Part shown: positions 7,506 through 15,777 of the stretch, piece after piece
Numbering within the stretch: position 1 is the first letter of the stretch
How the letters are laid out: each line of letters opens with the position of its first letter
Assembly (NCBI GenBank): GCA_010015585.1
Contig: ML975149.1
Reading direction: 5' to 3' (one strand)
Length of the DNA: 50,377 nucleotides
Origin: Eremomyces bilateralis CBS 781.70
Lineage: Eukaryota
Made by a program: the position numbers and the translations under genes
The notes under the pieces: model-generated
Databases searched by the model: none
What the model saw: the letters and a program-made list of their open reading frames with translations, nothing else
What the model was told of the DNA's origin: nothing

Positions 7506-10500
7506 CTATAGAATATCCTCATCATCATCCTCCACAAACCCAAACTGCCCATGCTCAATCGCCGATATCCGATCCAACTCCGCCTGATACTCCCTCCGCA
7601 CGTCATCCAGCGTGACCAGCGTCTGCCCCCCCTTCCGCCTCTCCGTCAAGATCCACGCGTTATCCGGATCTACCAAGCTGAGCGAATTGATCACGACGAG
7701 GTAGCTCTGCGCGAGTGTTTCGTCGGCCGGGTTGTTGACGGTCTCGGACGCGTCGCGGAGCCGCTGGATCCGCGAGTACATGATGCCGGCGGCGCCGCGG
7801 TGGTCGTTGCGGGAGATGCGCCAGGTGTAGATCATCTGTTGGAGGACGCCCGCGGTCTTTGTGTCCAGTGTGTTGCGGCACATCGAAACGAGGATGTCGT
7901 CTACCTCGTTATAGAAGGATGCGAATGGGAGGCCATGGAATAGTTGCTTGATGGTCGAATGCTGGAGCATGGCTTTGATCAGGGCCTCTAGACCTTGCTT
8001 TTGTCTGGGATACGTTAGCTCCGTTCGGTGAAGTGGGCTAGAGATAGCATACTGAGACTTGTCGCCCGACTGACACAAGGCAAGATACGCCTCTTCATAG
8101 TCATGGATTTGGAGGCATGCATGAAGGTAACAGCTATTCAACTCAGCGAGGCTCGCTTCGTCCGCTTCTTGCGGAGCAATCTCCAGGGCGTCTTGGGCCA
8201 ATCTGGCAAACTCAATCACACCAGGGGAATACTTTTCGGCTTCGTACAGCTGGCCGACGTGCAGATAATACTGGCCGACTCCACCCCCGAAGGCTTCCTT
8301 TTCCTGGGCTTTCAAAATGCCCGCATCGACTTGCTCAATGTCGGTTTGGCCCTCACCTATTGCTCGTTAGTGTAACGCTTCCATAGGATAGACATCTACT
8401 CACCAAGCATGAAAGAGCTCTTCTTGAAGAGGATAGAAGCCTCAGCGAAGTCTCCAAGCGTTAACTTGACCCTAGCCCGTAAGTAGTTGGTCCATGGAGT
8501 GACAGGGAGGAACCGTAGGAAGTCGCTGGTATTCTGAACCTCGCCATGTTGGAGTAGATAACTGGCTATCCGTCCTGTAATGTTGTCGAATTCTTGTGAC
8601 AAGGAGAGACCCGACACCCACGCCCGACACCAATACGTGAGCAGAGTAGAAAGATCCCCATTTGGTGACGGGATGTGATGCCAATCCCCCATGAACATGC
8701 TCTGCATGACGGTTTCTCGTGGGTCTAGCGCAAGTTCTTTAGAGTAAGGCGACTTCTCACCGGTGCAGTACGTTTCGTTCAGCCAACGGAGGATGCACTG
8801 CTCCTTCAGCTGCGAGCTTAGCTCATTGTAAATTTCGGAAGGGTCGAATTCCGAGGAGAGGACGGATGAGTCGATATCAATGGCGACGAAAATGACGAAA
8901 ACGAGTAAGTCGAGAAGAACCTGGAACGTCCTTGACAAAGTCTCTCTGGTCCCCTGAAGCAGCCCCTCGGCACCATATCGAGTCAGGTCGAGCTTGTGTT
9001 GATGGCCGTGATGGTCCTCTTTCAATTCCTCAATAATGTCATAGAAGAGTTGGTTTTTCAGCGTCTTGAATCCCCCGAGCTCGTCCATGGATTCGGCCAG
9101 TTTAGACAACAAATCATCACTGACGAGTTCGCATAAGCCGCATTGTGCTTCGAACATGCTGAGCCGCTCCAGCAGGACCACCGATGGCTCTTCCATTGCT
9201 TCAAGGGACACGGCACGCTCCAATACCTCTTGGAACGATGCAGGAAGGCCTGCCCGAAACTCACGCATAACAAGCATATACGGTGCCCTTGATACCGACT
9301 CCTTGTTATGAAATGCGTGGGTTAATGTCATTGGTGCGGACTTTGGTCGATGTAGGAGGGTGTCGTGGTTGAGGATCGAGAGATCGATAGTGCTGCACTT
9401 TCGAACCACCGACACAAAGTCGGCTTCGACAAGCCAAGGTGTGTTGGTATGATCGTCGAGGCAGAGGGCGAGTGTTTCAGTTCTGCTTTTATGCAAGTCT
9501 CGAACAAGTCCGAAGAAGATCTGCCATTGAGCTCCGATCGCTAGTTCGTGAGCGTCCGGATTTTGGTAGTCTTCATCCATGACAGTTTCCATCGCGTGAT
9601 GCTCAATGGCAAAGCTAACACGCTCTTTTAATGGGATATTCTTTGCGCTCTGCCTCTGAACCTGAATACCTGTTCCGCGGAAATAAACGGTTAAAGCGCT
9701 TTCAAGACACGGCACCGAGAATGTCCCGGACTTAAACAAATACCGAAGCCATCGTTCAGTCATGGTGGGATTATGAAGGTCGAGGGTCGATTGCGAGAAG
9801 TCGATAGGACACTGTGATTTGAGGGCGTCGGCGGACGACAGTCCCGAATCGACGTATACCCAGCCCCTCTTCCATGCCCCTTCTAGGGTCTTCTGAGGAC
9901 CAAACAAACTGAACTTGAGCCCGAACACCCGTGATGTTGGGCCGGATCTCGCGCGGATCCAGAGTTCAGTCTGCCTCCACCCAGTCGAGGGTTTGATATG
10001 GAAGTTTTCCAGCGTCCAAACCGAGGTGTTCATCAGCTCATCCACTGGGGGGATGAAACGGACGCTAGATTGAATGTCTCGGAATCCTTTCTCGGTCTCA
10101 TCGGCATCCCAAATCCCCCAAAATTTGAATTGGTGTGTGTGGGGAGAATACGTGACCACATAGTACGCATCTCCATCTTGGCCCGAGACATCTAGGATCT
10201 GCAGCATGTCTTGTTTTGACGGATCTAGGAGGAAGGTCGTTTTTCTTTCCGGATCGTCGAGCTCTGCGCCGGCAAGATCGGCCTCCATTCCAACCTTTCC
10301 TGTGTGCAGGTTCCACGCCCTTAGGGTGTGATCCAGGCAAACTGTGAATATGTGGCGCTTGTCTGGAGATTGTGCTAGGCTAGCCGCTGCATTTCCATAC
10401 AGCTCCAGGCCTTCGAATCGTACGGAGTGAGAAGATTTCCATGTGAGCAAGCTCTTGAGCGATTTACTCCAATCGTTCAACGAGTAGTAGGTTTCTCTCC

Positions 10501-11293
10501 AACCCGACACTAGGACGGTTAGTCTGTGTACTCCAGCGAGAGTTTTAGATATCTCACCATTGTTGCTATGTCCACGCTCTAGCCGGATGATGGTTCCTTC
10601 ATGGGTCGATACAAGCAGCTCCGACGCACTGGAGGCGAGCAAGCGGTACGGATATTTGAAAGCAAATGCCTGAGGCTTGCTAAGATTGCACCAGTCCACG
10701 ATGGGTGTAACTCCGATATAGGGCGGCTCCTGCTCAAACACAGAAGCATCGCTTGGTGCCGCAATCGGTTTGTTTGCAGTGGTCGGAACGAAGAACCGCC
10801 ATGGAAGTCGAAGGGAGTAGAGTTCGTTTGCGGTCGTTAGGACGAAGAAATCGAAGGGGTCGGCCACAGTCTGCTTTCCATCGCCTGAGTGTCCCGAGTG
10901 CGGAAATGCCACGCATGATGTCCGGACAGGACTGGAGAATTTGAATTGGAGTGTGAGAGTGGGATCGGCTTTCGTAGATCGGTGTTGGGTCAGGTCAATC
11001 GTTTGAAGCTCCAAGGTCGTACGCTCATCAAGCAAACGCCATAGCAGCGATCGTGGACCATTCGTATGTGGAAAGAAGTGGATGGAGCCTTCGGTCGAGA
11101 TATGGCGTCGGCCAAAGTCATTCTCGTCCTCCCCAATTCCGATTTCCGGGAGTATCTCGACAGGCGCTCGTTGTGTGGTGGATATCGATGCTCCAGCAGA
11201 CGGGAGAGTGATTGCGATTGTCGATGTCTCGTCGGCCTGCTCTAGACTCAGGCGAGTTCCGATGTAAAGGCAGGGCGCCACTGCCGGCGCCAT
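7506..11293 (-). CDS. NUP120: Nucleoporin Nup120/Nup160
   Basis: About 1200 aa: beta-propeller N-terminus (PRSLLWR, IFTVCLDHTLRAWNLHTGK) then helical C-terminus (YTWRISRNDHRGAAGIMYSRIQRL, YLVVINSLSLVD, LVTLDDVRREY). Three short introns. ATG at 11293 (MAPAVAPCLY). Confidence 0.88.
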
Positions 11294-11484
11294 GACACCT
11301 TTACATGCAATGAGAGATAGTGGGAAGTTAAGAGTGGTATCGTTGCGCGTATATCTAAACTTTCCAACTTGACGCGAGAAGTGCAGCTGGTTTGGCGAAG
11401 TGAATTGGTGGAAGACGCGTTGAGGCCACAAGGCCATAAAGCAAACAGCCGCTACGGACCTCCCTGTCGCAAAAATCCTCCGCC

Positions 11485-11492
11485 TATAAAAG
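11485..11492 (+). promoter_or_regulatory. Putative TATA box (TATAAAAG) pointing away from NUP120
   Basis: Canonical TATAWAWR followed by a pyrimidine tract (11511-11531) ~45 bp upstream of a structured non-coding segment. Confidence 0.45.
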
Positions 11493-11531
11493 CGCGAAAA
11501 TTCCACGAACCTTCTGCTGACTTTTTCTTTT

Positions 11532-11820
11532 CGACATCATCAGTAGATCGAGGCTCCGCTTCGGCGGCTCGCTGAGGGTTTTCTAGTCTACGGGCTTCTA
11601 GATCTCCCTCCGTTCCCGGCCTCGTTGAACGACTCCATTCGTCTTTTCCTATTCAGCTGCAAGCGTCACGCAATCATGTTGCTCTGCTTGGAACTGTGGG
11701 ATGAATGGCACATGAAATATTGTAGAACGCTTGGTGGTTGACGAGCATACGGCAGCTTAATGCACCGGCTTACACTGTCGGGTAATAATGGCCGAGCGGC
11801 GCGCTCTTATGTTGATGTCG
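11532..11820 (+). ncRNA. Candidate ~290-nt structured ncRNA, family not recognised
   Basis: Ends pair (CGACATCA 11532-39 / TGATGTCG 11813-20). Internal stems CCGC-TTCG-GCGG, GAGGG/CCCTC, CTCGTTGA/TTGACGAG, CCATTCGTCTT/GGGATGAATGG. G-U pairs favour the + strand. No credible ORF. Confidence 0.5.
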
Positions 11821-11869
11821 CTGTCGCGTTAAGCGATCCGAAGATTCAGATTTTGAGCGTAAGACGAAG

Positions 11870-12180
11870 TACGGAGATCGTGATGCGAGTTGGATAAGGT
11901 GGAATTCATGTCATTTGTGAAACACTCGTCTAAACCAACACGACTACAGAGATCAGGATGAGTTGGATCAGGCGGAATTCAATCATTTGATTCCTCGTCC
12001 ACTAAACTGAGCATGGGACAAAATACGGAGATGAGAGATTAGCACGTGTCGGATCAGGCGGAATTCAATCCATTGTGATTCCTGGTCCAAAGTAACTCGG
12101 CTACGGAGATAAGATGAGGGTTGGGTCAGACGGAATTCAATCCTTTGTGATTCCACGTCTACTAAACTATCTCGACTACA
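11870..12180. repeat. Four degenerate tandem units of 75-79 bp, each foldable as a hairpin
   Basis: Units start at 11870, 11945, 12024 and 12102 with TAC(G/A)GAGAT. Shared core approximately TTGGATCAGGCGGAATTCAATC..TTGTGATTCC.CGTC...CTAAAC, with unit 1 most diverged. Confidence 0.9.
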
Positions 12181-12226
12181 TCCCACAGAGTGTCATTTCG
12201 AACTCCCTGTAAAGAGTGTAAACCGT

Positions 12227-13092
12227 CTAGTACAGTCGCTTGGGCGGGCTCATGGTGGCCTTGATGGTCAATGAGCCCACGTTCTGCCATCCCTTCTTCA
12301 GCAGCGACACCAAGTAGTTGATGGCCAACATGATGTTGCCGATCAGGTCGTCCTCGGTCATGCCGACGTTGCCGACCGCCACACCCATGCATAGCACCTT
12401 CTTCAGCTGGAACTTGATGGTCGACTTGACCTCGTTGAGCTTGCCAGCCAGGTCATCGTTGTGGGAAACGGGGACCGGGAACTTGCCGGCCTTGGAGAGA
12501 CCGGGGCCGAGAAGACGAGGGATTTGACGGAGGAGAGTGTCGGACGAGACGAAGGCATCGTACTTGCGAGCAAGCTCTGAGGTAAACGGTTAGCGTGGCA
12601 AGAAATATTCAAGAACAATGCCGCATACTCTTGATCAGCTTCTTGTTCTTGTTCAGCTTCTTCAAGTCATCCGCGGACATGGCGTCGACGCCGAGATGCT
12701 TCGCACGATCGATGTCATGCTGGTCACCCAGGATACTGTTCACCCACTGTTAGCCCCATCTTCCGATCATCTCATGTCTGTGATCCCACATACCAAACAG
12801 CCATGCCCGGGCGGGGAACGCGAGGCAGCTGGACGGTGCCGCTGAAACGCTTGTCACGCTGCGGGTCGTAGTTCTTCAAGCCGATCTGAAGCTCGACGGT
12901 CTCGAGGAAGTTGCGCTTCTTCTCATTGTTGGAGTACTCAAGGAGCTCCTTGACGTTGGCGCGGACTCCGGCGACTGAAGTGCGGAAAAATGGTCAGCTC
13001 ACACTCAATGTACAAATATCATCCGCTGTGGCGGGCAATCGGAGGGTTTGGAGATGCTGGGTGAGGGGCGTCTTACCTGTGATTTTAGACAT
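12227..13092 (-). CDS. RPL1: 60S ribosomal protein L1 / L10a (uL1)
   Basis: Exons 13092-13077, 12974-12794, 12735-12629, 12576-12227 total 654 nt = 217 aa. MSKIT..., [64 protein letters not shown]. Confidence 0.98.
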
Positions 13093-13536
13093 TTTGTCAG
13101 ACAGTCTTCCAATAGGTATCTGATAACCTTTTGGTGAGGATTTTCGCGCTTCAGAAAAGAGAATCAGTGGGAGAAAGTGGGAGGATGTGGTTTTACAGGG
13201 TTCAAATTCCTGTGGTCGAAAATGTGCGGTGACTAAGCATTGTGATATGAATATTGGTGCCTCAGGAATAATTGCCTCCTTGTATTATCATAAGGCATCA
13301 ACATCCGATCGAACGGAAACAGAACTGAATGCTAAGAACAATCTTGAACTCCCTACCTTGTAGGAATCGTCCTCAGATACTCGAATTCAATGAAATGGCT
13401 TTGTTGTACATTAATCTACCGAAGTCCGTAAAGATGACTATTCTGTCCTGTTCCCAAAAGCACCGATGAATCGAATGGCGTAAACAGTTCCTCCATCTAT
13501 GTGCTATTAGACAAGTGTATCTAATCTCCTAGACAT

Positions 13537-15777
13537 TCAAATTCCATTGAGGAAGCCCCAGTCAATCGAGCTAGGATCAGCCTGGCCTGTGGTACTTGGC
13601 CAACCTTCAGAGACCCTTTCTATATGGATCTCGTTCGTCGTAGCCTCTGTGAACCGGGTTTGCGGAGCGGACGTATTCCCCAGGCTGCCATTCCCGTCAT
13701 GTAAGCTCTTTTCCAAAATCTCTGGTTCCTGGGAGGCACGCCATCCTTCCACCACTGCCGAATCACACCGTTCAGACATCCTCGTTACGTCCGCCAGCGC
13801 TACCAACGTCTTCTCCATCGTGCCTTGGTACTCGAATCCCAGCTGCACCCCGCAACGGACTGCGACGGCAGCCATCCAGCTCCTGTCTTTGACGTTGTAG
13901 CTGTCAGTGCCTAGATCGGTCGCCGATGTCGGGACCGGCAGGTTTTCTCGAGCCGCAGTGCCGCCGATTAGTGCCACGAAGAGCAGCACTCCCGAGAGCG
14001 GACCCCAGAGGCCCGAGGTGTCGGATCTTGCAAGGAGCTGCTTGAGATACGAAGTGATAGTGACTGGGCGATTTCGATAAATCGATGGGAGAGAATCGGA
14101 TCGAGTGTTTCGGCCATTCTGGCGCGGAGCCGGATCCTTCTTCACGCTAGATGCGAAGGCTGGGGTGATCTGACTTGCGGCGTAGGAAAAGGAGCATCCG
14201 TTGAGGATGGCGTTCGAGTAGATCAGTGCCGCAATCCGGCAAGATTCGAATCGATACCTTACAATTCTGGCTCGGCGACTGAGATCTTTCGAATCGCCGG
14301 AAAATGCGGAGGGGAGGCAAGCGATTCGGGCACAGATGGACTGGCGCTCCGCTTCCATGTCGTCCAGAGATTGGAAGTTCTTGAGCTCGGCAATCGGGCT
14401 CCGCATGATGGAAATGAGGTTGGTGAGGCTGTATATATCGCACAGCAGCTCGTACGTATTATGAGAGCAATAAGGATCATGGCGGAGTTCCATGAGTTCG
14501 ACTTGGTTGCTGTAAAGGGGTGAATACCGGATGGGTTGGCCAGGCTGGGATCTTTCTCGGCGTTGGCGTAAGAACTCCAGATATTCAGGGACAATCGGAG
14601 ATTCGGAGAGGATGGAGCTCTCGACAGAGTGTCTATTATCATATTAGATGTTTGGGCGAAATACGGCATACCTGACCCCGCTATTACTTGAGGCCAACGA
14701 ATGAGCGAGATAACTTACATGGAAATCATCATCGCGATGACAGGGTCTAGCTGAAGCAGCCCTCCCCTAAGCGTCACCAATTGCGCCAGTCCTTGCCAGT
14801 GGATATTGCTGGACACCTCCTGGCAAGCAATCATCGTCCCTAGTAGGACTTGGAGTACGGAGATGATGGCTTGATCGCTCGTGTTTAGGGTCCGGTCTGC
14901 AGTCATTATCCTGAGCAGGGGAATCATCTGACCCATGAGTGGAGCCCATATGCTTCTCTCTCCTCTCATCGCATCAAGATGCGCCGCAGAAATGCAAAGG
15001 GTACTCAGGAAAGAGAGTTTACTGGAGGTTGCTTTCGGGATCCAGGTTCGGCCCAGGTTTGGGCAGGAAAAAGTCGCGCTGCCTAGCAGTAATGTCAACA
15101 AGGCACAAGCGGAGTTCGATAAAGGAAGGCTGCTTACAGTGACACTTTAACTCTTCCATCGAGCTCTTGAAATCTCCCTTGAATTTCGGAAGTACCTCAA
15201 AAGTGTCATGGGGGGAACCAACGACTCGTAGAGGGAACGTCGACATAAACCCCTCATAGGCTGCTTCGAACAATAGCTGGCCATCCGTCAGTTTTCCTCG
15301 CGATGCAAGGACTCCTTGTGCTGCTTCAGTCTGCAATAATGCGTAGAACGAGCACATGTCGGTAGCGTTCGGCGTAGCGAACGGGAGGTCCTCCGCCTTC
15401 AACGACAATATCTGATTTAATACTCGTTGATTTGGCTGTGGCCGATCCACCAGCCGTTTCCGAGCCCTTCGATCACCCCGGAAAAGCCCAAGAGCATCAT
15501 CACTGGACATGCCAGGGGGGCAAGGGGTTTCAGTGACGGCGCCCGCAGGGATAGAAGCAGTGCGTGGCTGCGGCCTACTGGCATCGCACCGTTTAGATGC
15601 CTTCTCGACCCTCTGCGGTTGAGGTTTCAGGGGGTCGATCCCATCGCACGGCTTCTTCGCCTGCTGGAACATCACGAACGACCGGTTCGCGCTGACGATC
15701 TTTTTATCTTTGAAAAAGTCCGGGTCGTTCCCGGTTACAAAGCGGAAGTTCTTCGTCGGCTTGGCTGGAGTGGTCAT
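13537..15777 (-). CDS. Fungal-specific transcription-factor-like protein without an obvious Zn2Cys6 cluster
   Basis: Multi-exon. N-terminal FRFVTGNDP..FKDKK....NRSFVM basic segment, SPHDTFEVLP, CISAAHLDAMRG, HWQGLAQLVTLRGGL..L, FESCRIAALIY; pattern recalls Fungal_trans_2-type proteins. Start could be 15777 or 15792; exon edges approximate. Confidence 0.7.

What the first reader, a model, noticed from the sequence alone, without database searches (positions are those of the whole stretch)
11870..12180. Array of four tandem RNA hairpins just downstream of the RPL1 stop codon
Seen: four 75-79-nt units joined by a conserved TAC(G/A)GAGAT linker, starting ~50 nt past the uL1 stop. Units 2-4 fold by hand into G(A/G)C/GUC, a 2-nt bulge, GGAA(U)/(A)UUCC, CAA/UUG and a 4-nt loop. 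The basal stems differ in sequence yet still pair (unit 1 TCGTG/CACGA and GTTGG/CCAAC; unit 2 TCAG/CTGA; unit 3 GAG-TTA/TAACTC; unit 4 GAGATA/TATCTC), which looks like covariation rather than neutral decay. G-U pairs favour the + strand, antisense to RPL1. Units 1, 2 and 4 end AAACYnn-N7-ACA. Inference, three competing models: a polycistronic milRNA-like precursor, a multi-hairpin ACA-box RNA, or repeated protein-binding hairpins in the RPL1 3'UTR (uL1 is a known autoregulatory RNA binder in prokaryotes).
Basis: partly seen in the sequence, partly recalled or inferred. Interest (0 to 1): 0.75.

Follow-up and report, generated by a model that had tools for sequence, protein, structure and literature searches.

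The report
Decaying hairpin repeat beside fungal snoRNA
Four worn copies of one ancestral RNA hairpin lie between a ribosomal protein gene and a small rRNA-modifying RNA gene in a fungus; the repeat is real, but it looks like a decaying leftover rather than a working RNA array.

Summary
The four-unit array is real: periods 75/79/78/75 nt, 58-77% pairwise identity, single copy in the genome. No unit folds better than shuffles on either strand, 0 of 17 consensus pairs change on both sides, and the 'covarying' basal stems are different registers picked per unit. However, the majority consensus folds into one long hairpin on the + strand (median z -3.1, against -1.15 on the - strand), with H/ACA-like geometry, and each copy has lost pairs at about the neutral rate. 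The array lies 155 nt downstream of an unnoticed snR37 (Nc ACA15) snoRNA gene on the same strand, convergent with RPL1. It is not snR30, has no uL1-binding motif or Dicer-length stem, has no significant rRNA target, and has no counterpart in 80 fungal RPL1 loci (none closely related). RNA covers it, but the strand is unknown and such read-through is common. Best reading (0.5): a hairpin amplified four times and now decaying. A live multi-hairpin ACA RNA is not excluded (0.15).

The parts
11870..11944 (+). Repeat unit 1. Basal stem best kept (7 of 8 pairs), inner GGAAT/ATTCC stem broken; followed by ACA at 11946-11948, 15 nt after the upper stem
11945..12023 (+). Repeat unit 2. Basal stem 4 of 8 pairs; 3-nt insertion after GTC; ACA at 12018-12020 in a tail longer than in the other units
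12024..12101 (+). Repeat unit 3. Basal stem 5 of 8 pairs; 5' insertion; followed by ACG, not ACA, at 12103-12105
12102..12183 (+). Repeat unit 4 and partial linker. Basal stem 6 of 8 pairs; ACA at 12178-12180 followed by 3 nt
11889..11908 (+). Best-conserved 20-nt block of the unit (copy in unit 1; others start at 11962, 12048 and 12120)
   Evidence: clustering of invariant columns p 0.013-0.019
11535..11715 (+). H/ACA snoRNA gene, homolog of N. crassa Nc ACA15 / yeast snR37. The 5' hairpin guide pairs 7+3 bp around a large-subunit rRNA uridine; degenerate H box 11626-11632; ACA 11710-11712. The 5' end is inferred from a conserved CATCATCAG motif.
11485..11492 (+). TATA-like box upstream of the snoRNA gene (function inferred)
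12227..13092 (-). RPL1 (uL1), four exons, 217 aa; introns from RNA joints; convergent with the snoRNA and the array
11635..12365 (.). One RNA-type contig (mean depth 2454) spanning the 3' half of the snoRNA, the array and the end of the RPL1 coding sequence; strand unknown

Best explanation
One ~75-nt unit carrying a long imperfect RNA hairpin on the + strand was duplicated head to tail to four copies in the spacer between the snR37-type snoRNA gene and RPL1, and the copies are now decaying. The ancestral hairpin had an 8-bp basal stem, a 4x4 internal loop, a bulged upper stem of about 11-12 bp, a 4-nt loop and a box triplet 3 nt after the stem. It was probably an H/ACA-type hairpin or a 3'-trailer hairpin of the snoRNA transcript. 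The array is transcribed as read-through from one or both convergent neighbours and does nothing specific. Shown: the repeat, the consensus fold, pair loss near the neutral rate, the neighbouring snoRNA, RNA cover. Inferred: that the consensus approximates the ancestor, the H/ACA origin, slippage or unequal exchange as the duplication route, and lack of present function.
For: 20 tie-broken consensus variants fold at median -19.3 kcal/mol, z -3.1 (range -4.2 to -2.4) on +, against z -1.15 on -; the four copies give z +0.21, -0.86, -0.09 and -1.54. Broken pairs in the copies match neutral simulation: in the three variants printed per alignment, 13-17 observed against 14.4-17.7 expected (hand alignment, median p 0.53) and 13-17 against 16.4-22 (MAFFT alignment, median p 0.135). 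Mean folding energy of the copies is no better than neutral simulation (p 0.43 and 0.15). 0 of 17 pairs change on both sides, against 21 of 38 in the neighbouring snoRNA. Single copy in the genome by DNA search and two patterns. No match in 80 RPL1 loci (73 of them). Of 12 intronless RPL1 contigs of other fungi (27 examined), 5 run 590 nt or more past the stop, and L026 reaches its own convergent snR37 without an array. An unrelated minisatellite sits behind snR37 in L006/L007.
Against: The number of RNAalifold consensus pairs kept on + (17) exceeds neutral simulation (p 0.018 and 0.003; one of three measures, two strands, two alignments). Invariant columns cluster in a 20-nt block (p 0.013-0.019). 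Cores trimmed after the fact fold at z -1.7 to -1.9 on + in all four units. All four copies persist at 58-77% identity without large deletions. AAAC/G lies 14 nt before ACA/ACG in 4 of 4 units although unit 2 has a different tail. Four sequences give little power, and no close relative was available (nearest Nup120 39% identical).
Confidence: 0.5

Rival explanations
1. The array is a live multi-hairpin H/ACA-type RNA, made from its own start or as a 3' extension of the snR37 transcript. Each unit binds a Cbf5 core through its ACA or H-like box and either guides pseudouridylation or scaffolds pre-ribosomes.
For: The consensus has H/ACA geometry on the same strand as a true H/ACA gene. ACA follows 3 of 4 units in one register; ACAAAA after unit 2 fits ANANNA; unit 4 ends ACA plus 3 nt. 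RNA cover starts 100 nt inside the snoRNA, compatible with a + strand precursor. Pair-count test p 0.003-0.018.
Against: Only unit 1 has both ACA and a 14-16 nt distance from the upper stem (15 nt; units 2 and 4 have 18 nt, unit 3 has ACG), and its inner stem is broken. The pocket is only 4x4 in the consensus. No significant target: best-of-four p 0.19 and 0.41, in scans too weak to single out even the true snR37 guide (p 0.17). No Rfam match; no by-eye match among the 20 N. crassa H/ACA RNAs. The snoRNA has its own invariant ACA at 11710. The genome's snR30 is elsewhere.
Confidence: 0.15
2. It is an ordinary minisatellite seeded by a DNA inverted repeat (template switching, or the end of a lost miniature transposon or Helitron). 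It never had an RNA-level role; the hairpin only promoted its own duplication.
For: Copies decay at the neutral rate. Two G-U pairs of the consensus are Watson-Crick in one unit each (unit 1 basal stem, unit 4 upper stem), so a near-perfect palindrome is a possible ancestor. Earlier unchecked notes report Helitrons in this genome.
Against: The majority state at those positions is G-U, and the fold is strand-asymmetric (z -3.1 against -1.15), which suits RNA. No other copy or intact inverted-repeat pair was found in the genome.
Confidence: 0.17
3. The hairpins are repeated RNase III (Rnt1/Pac1-type) cleavage sites that end the snoRNA precursor or RPL1 read-through, and so insulate two convergent genes.
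For: Position directly between convergent genes. The consensus stem has about 20-22 pairs with bulges and a 4-nt loop, like the 23-32 nt stems with 3-5 nt loops behind fission-yeast snRNA genes (PMC8421224, passages).
Against: The present copies have longest stacks of 4-8 bp. Only 2 of 22 relatives have a strong hairpin (z below -2) within 470 nt behind snR37. One RNA contig runs through the whole array.
Confidence: 0.09
4. The units are protein-binding elements in a long RPL1 3' UTR (- strand) that let uL1 or another protein control the mRNA.
For: The RNA contig joins the array to the RPL1 coding end. uL1 autoregulation exists in yeast and animals (PMC7732827, PMC4937301; passages). The best non-self match of the unit profile lies in an RPL1 3' UTR in the same orientation (L039/L045/L047, E 0.05-0.24).
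Against: No GGGAG or GGAAG core in the array on either strand. The - strand folds worse. The L039 match is not enriched: scores of 22 or more in 8 of 61 proximal windows against 74 of 526 distal ones. The profile of the relatives' 3' UTR hairpin does not find the array (best E 0.24 in 530 nt).
Confidence: 0.06
5. It is a polycistronic milRNA-like precursor diced into four related small RNAs.
For: A conserved block of about 20 nt sits on the 5' arm of each unit.
Against: Longest stacked helix is 4-8 bp, and folding is no better than shuffles.
Confidence: 0.03

Closest known systems
Degenerate intergenic minisatellite / tandem array of a hairpin-bearing unit
   Same: Head-to-tail 75-79 nt units, one locus, indels between copies, substitutions that break pairs at about the neutral rate.
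   Different: The consensus is a significantly stable, strand-specific hairpin with snoRNA-like geometry, which ordinary minisatellites need not have.
Box H/ACA snoRNA hairpin (fungal set in PMC2780460; single-hairpin H-box structures in PMC8216456)
   Same: Lower stem, internal loop, upper stem, and a box triplet 3 nt after the stem and 15 nt from the loop top in the consensus; same strand as a neighbouring H/ACA gene.
   Different: Four homologous hairpins instead of two unrelated ones; small pocket; box and distance correct together in 1 of 4 units; no target shown; no covariation.
snR37 / Nc ACA15 (applies to the neighbour at 11535-11715, not to the array)
   Same: Guide and stem sequence shared with Nc ACA15, 7+3 bp around the rRNA uridine, invariant ACA, 21 of 38 pairs covary.
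   Different: Degenerate H box; the window's copy lacks the short 5' leader stretch seen in relatives; not detected by Rfam.
snR30/U17
   Same: AAAC(C/T)-like words upstream of ACA resemble motif m2 (PMC7601244 Table 1).
   Different: No m1 motif, m2 never exact, and a better snR30 candidate with m1, m2, ACA and likeness to Nc ACA12 lies on contig C10.
uL1-binding mRNA motif (RPL1B 5' UTR, PMC7732827; L10ARE, PMC4937301)
   Same: Structured RNA next to the uL1 gene.
   Different: No GGGAG/GGAAG core in the array; it lies 3' of the gene and folds best on the antisense strand.

Membership tests
Box H/ACA snoRNA (array) | Hairpin with internal pocket between lower and upper stems | tested here: inconclusive
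   Met by the consensus (z -3.1); eroded in each copy (basal stem 7, 4, 5, 6 of 8 pairs).
Box H/ACA snoRNA (array) | ACA or ANANNA box 14-16 nt from the pocket top (PMC2780460) | tested here: inconclusive
   From the end of the upper stem: 15 nt and ACA in unit 1, 15 nt and ACG in unit 3, 18 nt and ACA in units 2 and 4; 14 nt from AAAC/G in all four.
Box H/ACA snoRNA (array) | 9-13 bp bipartite pairing around a target uridine | tested here: inconclusive
   Best hits 8-12 bp, none beyond chance over four units (p 0.19, 0.41). Targets were surrogate rRNAs from other organisms, lacking 18S 1-566; the true snR37 guide also fails to stand out (p 0.17).
Box H/ACA snoRNA (array) | Compensatory conservation of the stems | tested here: not met
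   0 of 17 pairs change on both sides among the four copies; broken pairs near neutral. No orthologs were available.
Box H/ACA snoRNA (array) | Stable RNA ending 3 nt after ACA, bound by Cbf5 | not testable with these tools
   Only contigs were available; no ends or strand.
snR30/U17 | [quoted passage not shown] | tested here: not met
   No m1; m2 inexact; the m1-m2 pattern matches 9 places in the genome, none in this window; candidate ortholog on C10.
snR37 / Nc ACA15 (neighbour 11535-11715) | 5' hairpin guide to the peptidyl-transferase-centre uridine; two hairpins; ACA | tested here: met
   That the paired uridine is yeast 2944 follows from the Nc ACA15 homology; the numbering itself is recalled.
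uL1-binding motif | GGGAG/GGAAG core between two helices | tested here: not met
   No such word in 11870-12183 on either strand; the only GGGAG nearby is at 12203-12207 (-), outside the array.
milRNA / Dicer precursor | Long near-perfect stem (threshold from general knowledge) and small-RNA product | tested here: not met
   Longest stack 4-8 bp; small-RNA data not available.
Rnt1/Pac1 cleavage stem | Helix of 20 nt or more, bulges tolerated (PMC8421224) | tested here: inconclusive
   Consensus 20-24 pairs; copies 17-24 pairs in unstable folds; not positionally conserved (2 of 22).
Dispersed transposon or MITE family | Other copies in the genome | tested here: not met
   1 place by DNA search; the 4 one-mismatch pattern hits elsewhere are not unit copies; 0 intact inverted-repeat pairs. 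These searches are insensitive to very old copies.

The most novel reading that the evidence does not exclude
A fungal H/ACA RNA built by four-fold tandem amplification of a single hairpin-box module, transcribed with or just behind snR37, whose copies are diverging towards different targets. It would be a snapshot of how multi-hairpin snoRNAs and new guides arise.
Probability: 0.13. Interest if true: 0.7.

Novelty: new member of a known kind. Interest (0 to 1): 0.27.

Why it matters
On the best reading it matters little: a lineage-specific decaying repeat. Two things are worth keeping. First, the consensus of the copies is a significant, strand-specific hairpin with H/ACA geometry, so the array may record the duplication of a snoRNA hairpin; if an RNA is still made and bound by Cbf5, it would show new snoRNA architecture arising by tandem amplification. 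Second, the follow-up found an unannotated snR37 gene that Rfam misses and that stays linked to RPL1 in 38 of 80 fungal loci, in both orientations.

Tried and rejected
Rfam at gathering and E-value thresholds: no match; also none in two relatives that carry the snoRNA. Rfam snR30 model on the own genome: no match. Telomerase template TAACCCTAA: absent from the window (motif recalled). Derivation from U6, U2, snR37, snR30, 5.8S, 18S, 28S, the RPL1 exon or the spacer: 20 local-alignment tests, lowest p 0.08; the snR37 profile and unit profile find nothing extra in the array or its flanks. Homology to the hairpin in relatives' RPL1 3' UTRs: rejected. Guide targets considered and dropped as chance: unit 4 at L083 position 68 (5+5 bp; p 0.047 alone, 0.19 over four units), unit 2 at a 5' large-subunit site (8+3 bp, p 0.15) and unit 3 at L114 position 616 (5+5 bp, p 0.22); none in U2 or U6 above 8 bp. 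A link of the unit 3 site to human U68 rested on recalled numbering and was dropped. In one search the positive control failed because L083 was left out and L114 differs at that site. The 342-nt RPL1 tree places the window beside the clade with the 3' UTR hairpin but on a long branch; I do not rely on it. Sequencing runs: no RNA holder listed on record; one run laid. The missing cover at 11249-11634 is not used as evidence. rDNA is almost absent from the assembly, so surrogate rRNAs were used. Viral contigs hold no copy of the core pattern. Earlier-findings look-ups by sequence, relatives, words and near place gave nothing. The supplement of PMC8216456 could not be read, so its single-hairpin H-box structures were not compared by sequence; this could bear on the origin of the unit. 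The own genome could not be scanned with the covariance model, so distant copies of the unit may have been missed.

Full report
THE OBSERVATION. The array is in the sequence as described. Linkers TAC(A/G)GAGAT start at 11870, 11945, 12024 and 12102, and a partial one at 12177, giving periods of 75, 79, 78 and 75 nt. Pairwise identity is 58-71% in the MAFFT alignment and 68-77% in a hand-gapped one. Tandem Repeats Finder misses it at score 30, but self-BLAST gives 74% over 164 nt, E 3e-20. A 50-120 nt periodicity scan of the window gave three bins: two in this array and one at the threshold near 2100. The stretch is single-copy in the 26.9 Mb genome by DNA search. A 17-letter core pattern with one mismatch gave 8 places, 4 of them the units; the other 4 are not unit copies by covariance model.

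CONTEXT. RPL1 (uL1, PF00687) is on the - strand, four exons, 217 aa, stop at 12227-12229. NUP120 lies on the - strand further left; its nearest relatives are Dothideomycete proteins only 38-39% identical, so the host is an isolated lineage and no close relative was in reach. A TATA-like box at 11485 precedes a two-hairpin RNA at about 11535-11715 on the + strand. Its 5' domain is present in 38 of 80 fungal RPL1 loci, 18 on the RPL1 strand and 20 convergent, so it is an independent gene. In 16 aligned copies the guide and the ACA are invariant and 21 of 38 pairs show compensatory change. It shares guide and stems with N. crassa Nc ACA15 (PMC2780460, supplement 2, compared by eye), which that paper's Table 2 lists as the snR37 homolog (passages). 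Its guide pairs 7+3 bp around a uridine of a large-subunit rRNA fragment; yeast snR37 modifies U2944 (PMC13015370, passages). Rfam does not detect it. The array starts 155 nt after this RNA, on the same strand.

DO THE UNITS FOLD? Not better than chance. Eight unit folds give z from -0.8 to +1.1, the whole array +1.65 and +1.54, and no 90-nt window over the array falls below -0.6. Cores trimmed around the hairpin after the fact reach z -1.7 to -1.9 on + in all four units, and +0.9 to -1.8 on -. RNAalifold gives 17 pairs on + and 8 on -, none with a change on both sides; its energy is not beyond column shuffles (p 0.27 for four units, 0.076 for units 2-4). A caution: the two true snoRNA hairpins also fail the single-sequence shuffle test (z -0.9 each), so that test alone cannot dismiss structure.

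THE CONSENSUS DOES FOLD. Over 20 tie-broken variants the median is -19.3 kcal/mol, z -3.1 (range -4.2 to -2.4) on +, against z -1.15 (range -2.4 to -0.55) on -. The same span in the four copies gives z +0.21, -0.86, -0.09 and -1.54, and the basal stem keeps 7, 4, 5 and 6 of 8 pairs. I then asked whether the copies keep these pairs better than random substitution of the same number and transition rate would. They do not clearly: median p 0.53 on the hand alignment and 0.135 (range 0.02-0.23) on the MAFFT alignment; mean folding energy p 0.43 and 0.15. Results against this reading: the count of RNAalifold pairs on + exceeds the neutral simulation (p 0.018 and 0.003), and invariant columns cluster in a 20-nt block (p 0.013-0.019). 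With four sequences the power is low, so weak selection is not excluded. The inference is a structured + strand ancestor whose copies have been eroding since amplification.

IS IT AN H/ACA RNA? The consensus has the geometry: the box triplet lies 3 nt after the lower stem and 15 nt from the loop top, within the 14-16 nt rule (PMC2780460). In the copies the distance from the upper stem is 15 nt in units 1 and 3 and 18 nt in units 2 and 4; the triplet is ACA in units 1, 2 and 4 and ACG in unit 3. At the five linker positions the triplet is ACG three times and ACA twice; unit 2's ACA lies in a longer tail, so the ancestral state is uncertain. The assembly lacks rDNA, so I scanned surrogate rRNAs from other organisms, which lack 18S 1-566, and the genome's own U2 and U6. 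No target stood out: best-of-four p 0.19 and 0.41. The true snR37 guide scores p 0.17 in the first scan, so this is inconclusive rather than negative. The AAAC words recall snR30 motif m2 (PMC7601244, passages and Table 1), but m1 is absent. The m1-m2 pattern hits 9 places in the genome, none here, and one on contig C10 resembles Nc ACA12, which PMC5824354 equates with snR30 (passages).

OTHER MODELS. uL1 binding needs a GGGAG/GGAAG core (PMC7732827, passages); the array has none on either strand. The animal element L10ARE is intronic and unrelated to the rRNA site (PMC4937301, passages). A clade of relatives has a covarying hairpin in the RPL1 3' UTR (8 of 14 pairs, 13 sequences), but its profile does not find the array. 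The one weak match to the units (L039/L045/L047, one sequence) is not backed by enrichment. Stacked helices of 4-8 bp argue against a Dicer precursor. An RNase III terminator role fits the position and the consensus stem (PMC8421224, passages), but only 2 of 22 relatives have a strong hairpin behind snR37.

CONSERVATION AND EXPRESSION. No unit homolog was found in the 80 RPL1 loci by BLAST or profile HMM, or in 73 of them by covariance model (best E 4.6). These loci are distant, so this shows only that the array is not class-wide. Run X1 skips the introns of RPL1, NUP120 and the next gene, so it behaves as RNA. One 731-nt contig of mean depth 2454 covers 11635-12365, against about 10,000-14,000 for RPL1 coding contigs and 124 for NUP120. 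Depth over the array could be anywhere from about 100 to 1,600, depending on the assumed depth of the coding part, and the strand is unknown. Such cover is ordinary: 12 of 27 examined RPL1 contigs are intronless and probably transcripts, 5 of these run 590 nt or more past the stop, and L026 reaches its own convergent snR37.

VERDICT. The best explanation (0.5) is a + strand RNA hairpin, plausibly of H/ACA type, amplified four times and now decaying under read-through transcription. Rivals: a DNA-palindrome minisatellite (0.17), a live multi-hairpin H/ACA RNA (0.15), RNase III insulator sites (0.09), an RPL1 3' UTR element (0.06), a milRNA precursor (0.03). I found no description of such an array in the listings of searches (titles and abstract starts only). 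The unread supplement of PMC8216456 (passages and section 17 seen) could hold a related single-hairpin family. Novelty: new member of a known kind. Interest 0.27.

Noticed in passing
window 11535-11715 (+): Unannotated snR37/Nc ACA15 snoRNA gene that Rfam misses; linked to the 3' end of RPL1 in 38 of 80 fungal loci, 18 tandem and 20 convergent, so the linkage survives inversion.
   Followed up: yes
L003, L004, L005, L008, L033, L036, L039, L054 and others, first 110 nt after the RPL1 stop: A clade-specific RPL1 3' UTR hairpin, mostly with a GNRA-type loop, with 8 of 14 pairs covarying among 13 sequences; a candidate regulatory element unrelated to the array.
   Followed up: partly
G000 C10:168300-169000 (L113, - strand): Likely snR30 ortholog with m1, m2 and ACA and likeness to Nc ACA12, missed by the Rfam snR30 model.
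   Followed up: partly
window 12190-12210 (-): Short hairpin right after the RPL1 stop that contains GGGAG and a nearby GAAAU, words of the uL1-binding motif, but without the asymmetric internal loop (loop requirement recalled); probably chance.
   Followed up: partly
L042, L043, L044, L048, about 110-180 nt after the RPL1 stop: A shared block (ACCGAGCA...CACCGCTCA...GTGACCCGGT...AGAATAGCTG) in otherwise diverged 3' regions; looks like another small structured RNA.
   Followed up: no
L006/L007, behind snR37: An unrelated minisatellite of about 24-nt period at the same relative position as the array.
   Followed up: no
L103 (G000 C13:274812-275003) and L104 (C7:806004-806103): The genome's U2 and U6 snRNAs score 138 and 86 bits and look divergent at the U2 5' end and the U6 3' half (comparison recalled).
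   Followed up: no
L002 (G000 C13:588134-588301): The only 18S-like sequence found in the assembly is a 168-nt degenerate fragment, possibly an rDNA pseudogene piece.
   Followed up: no
L084-L096, L083, L114: Eukaryotic rDNA, mostly fungal, inside 13 prokaryote genome records and 2 viral contigs; probably contamination. L096 appears to carry several intron-like insertions in its rRNA genes.
   Followed up: no
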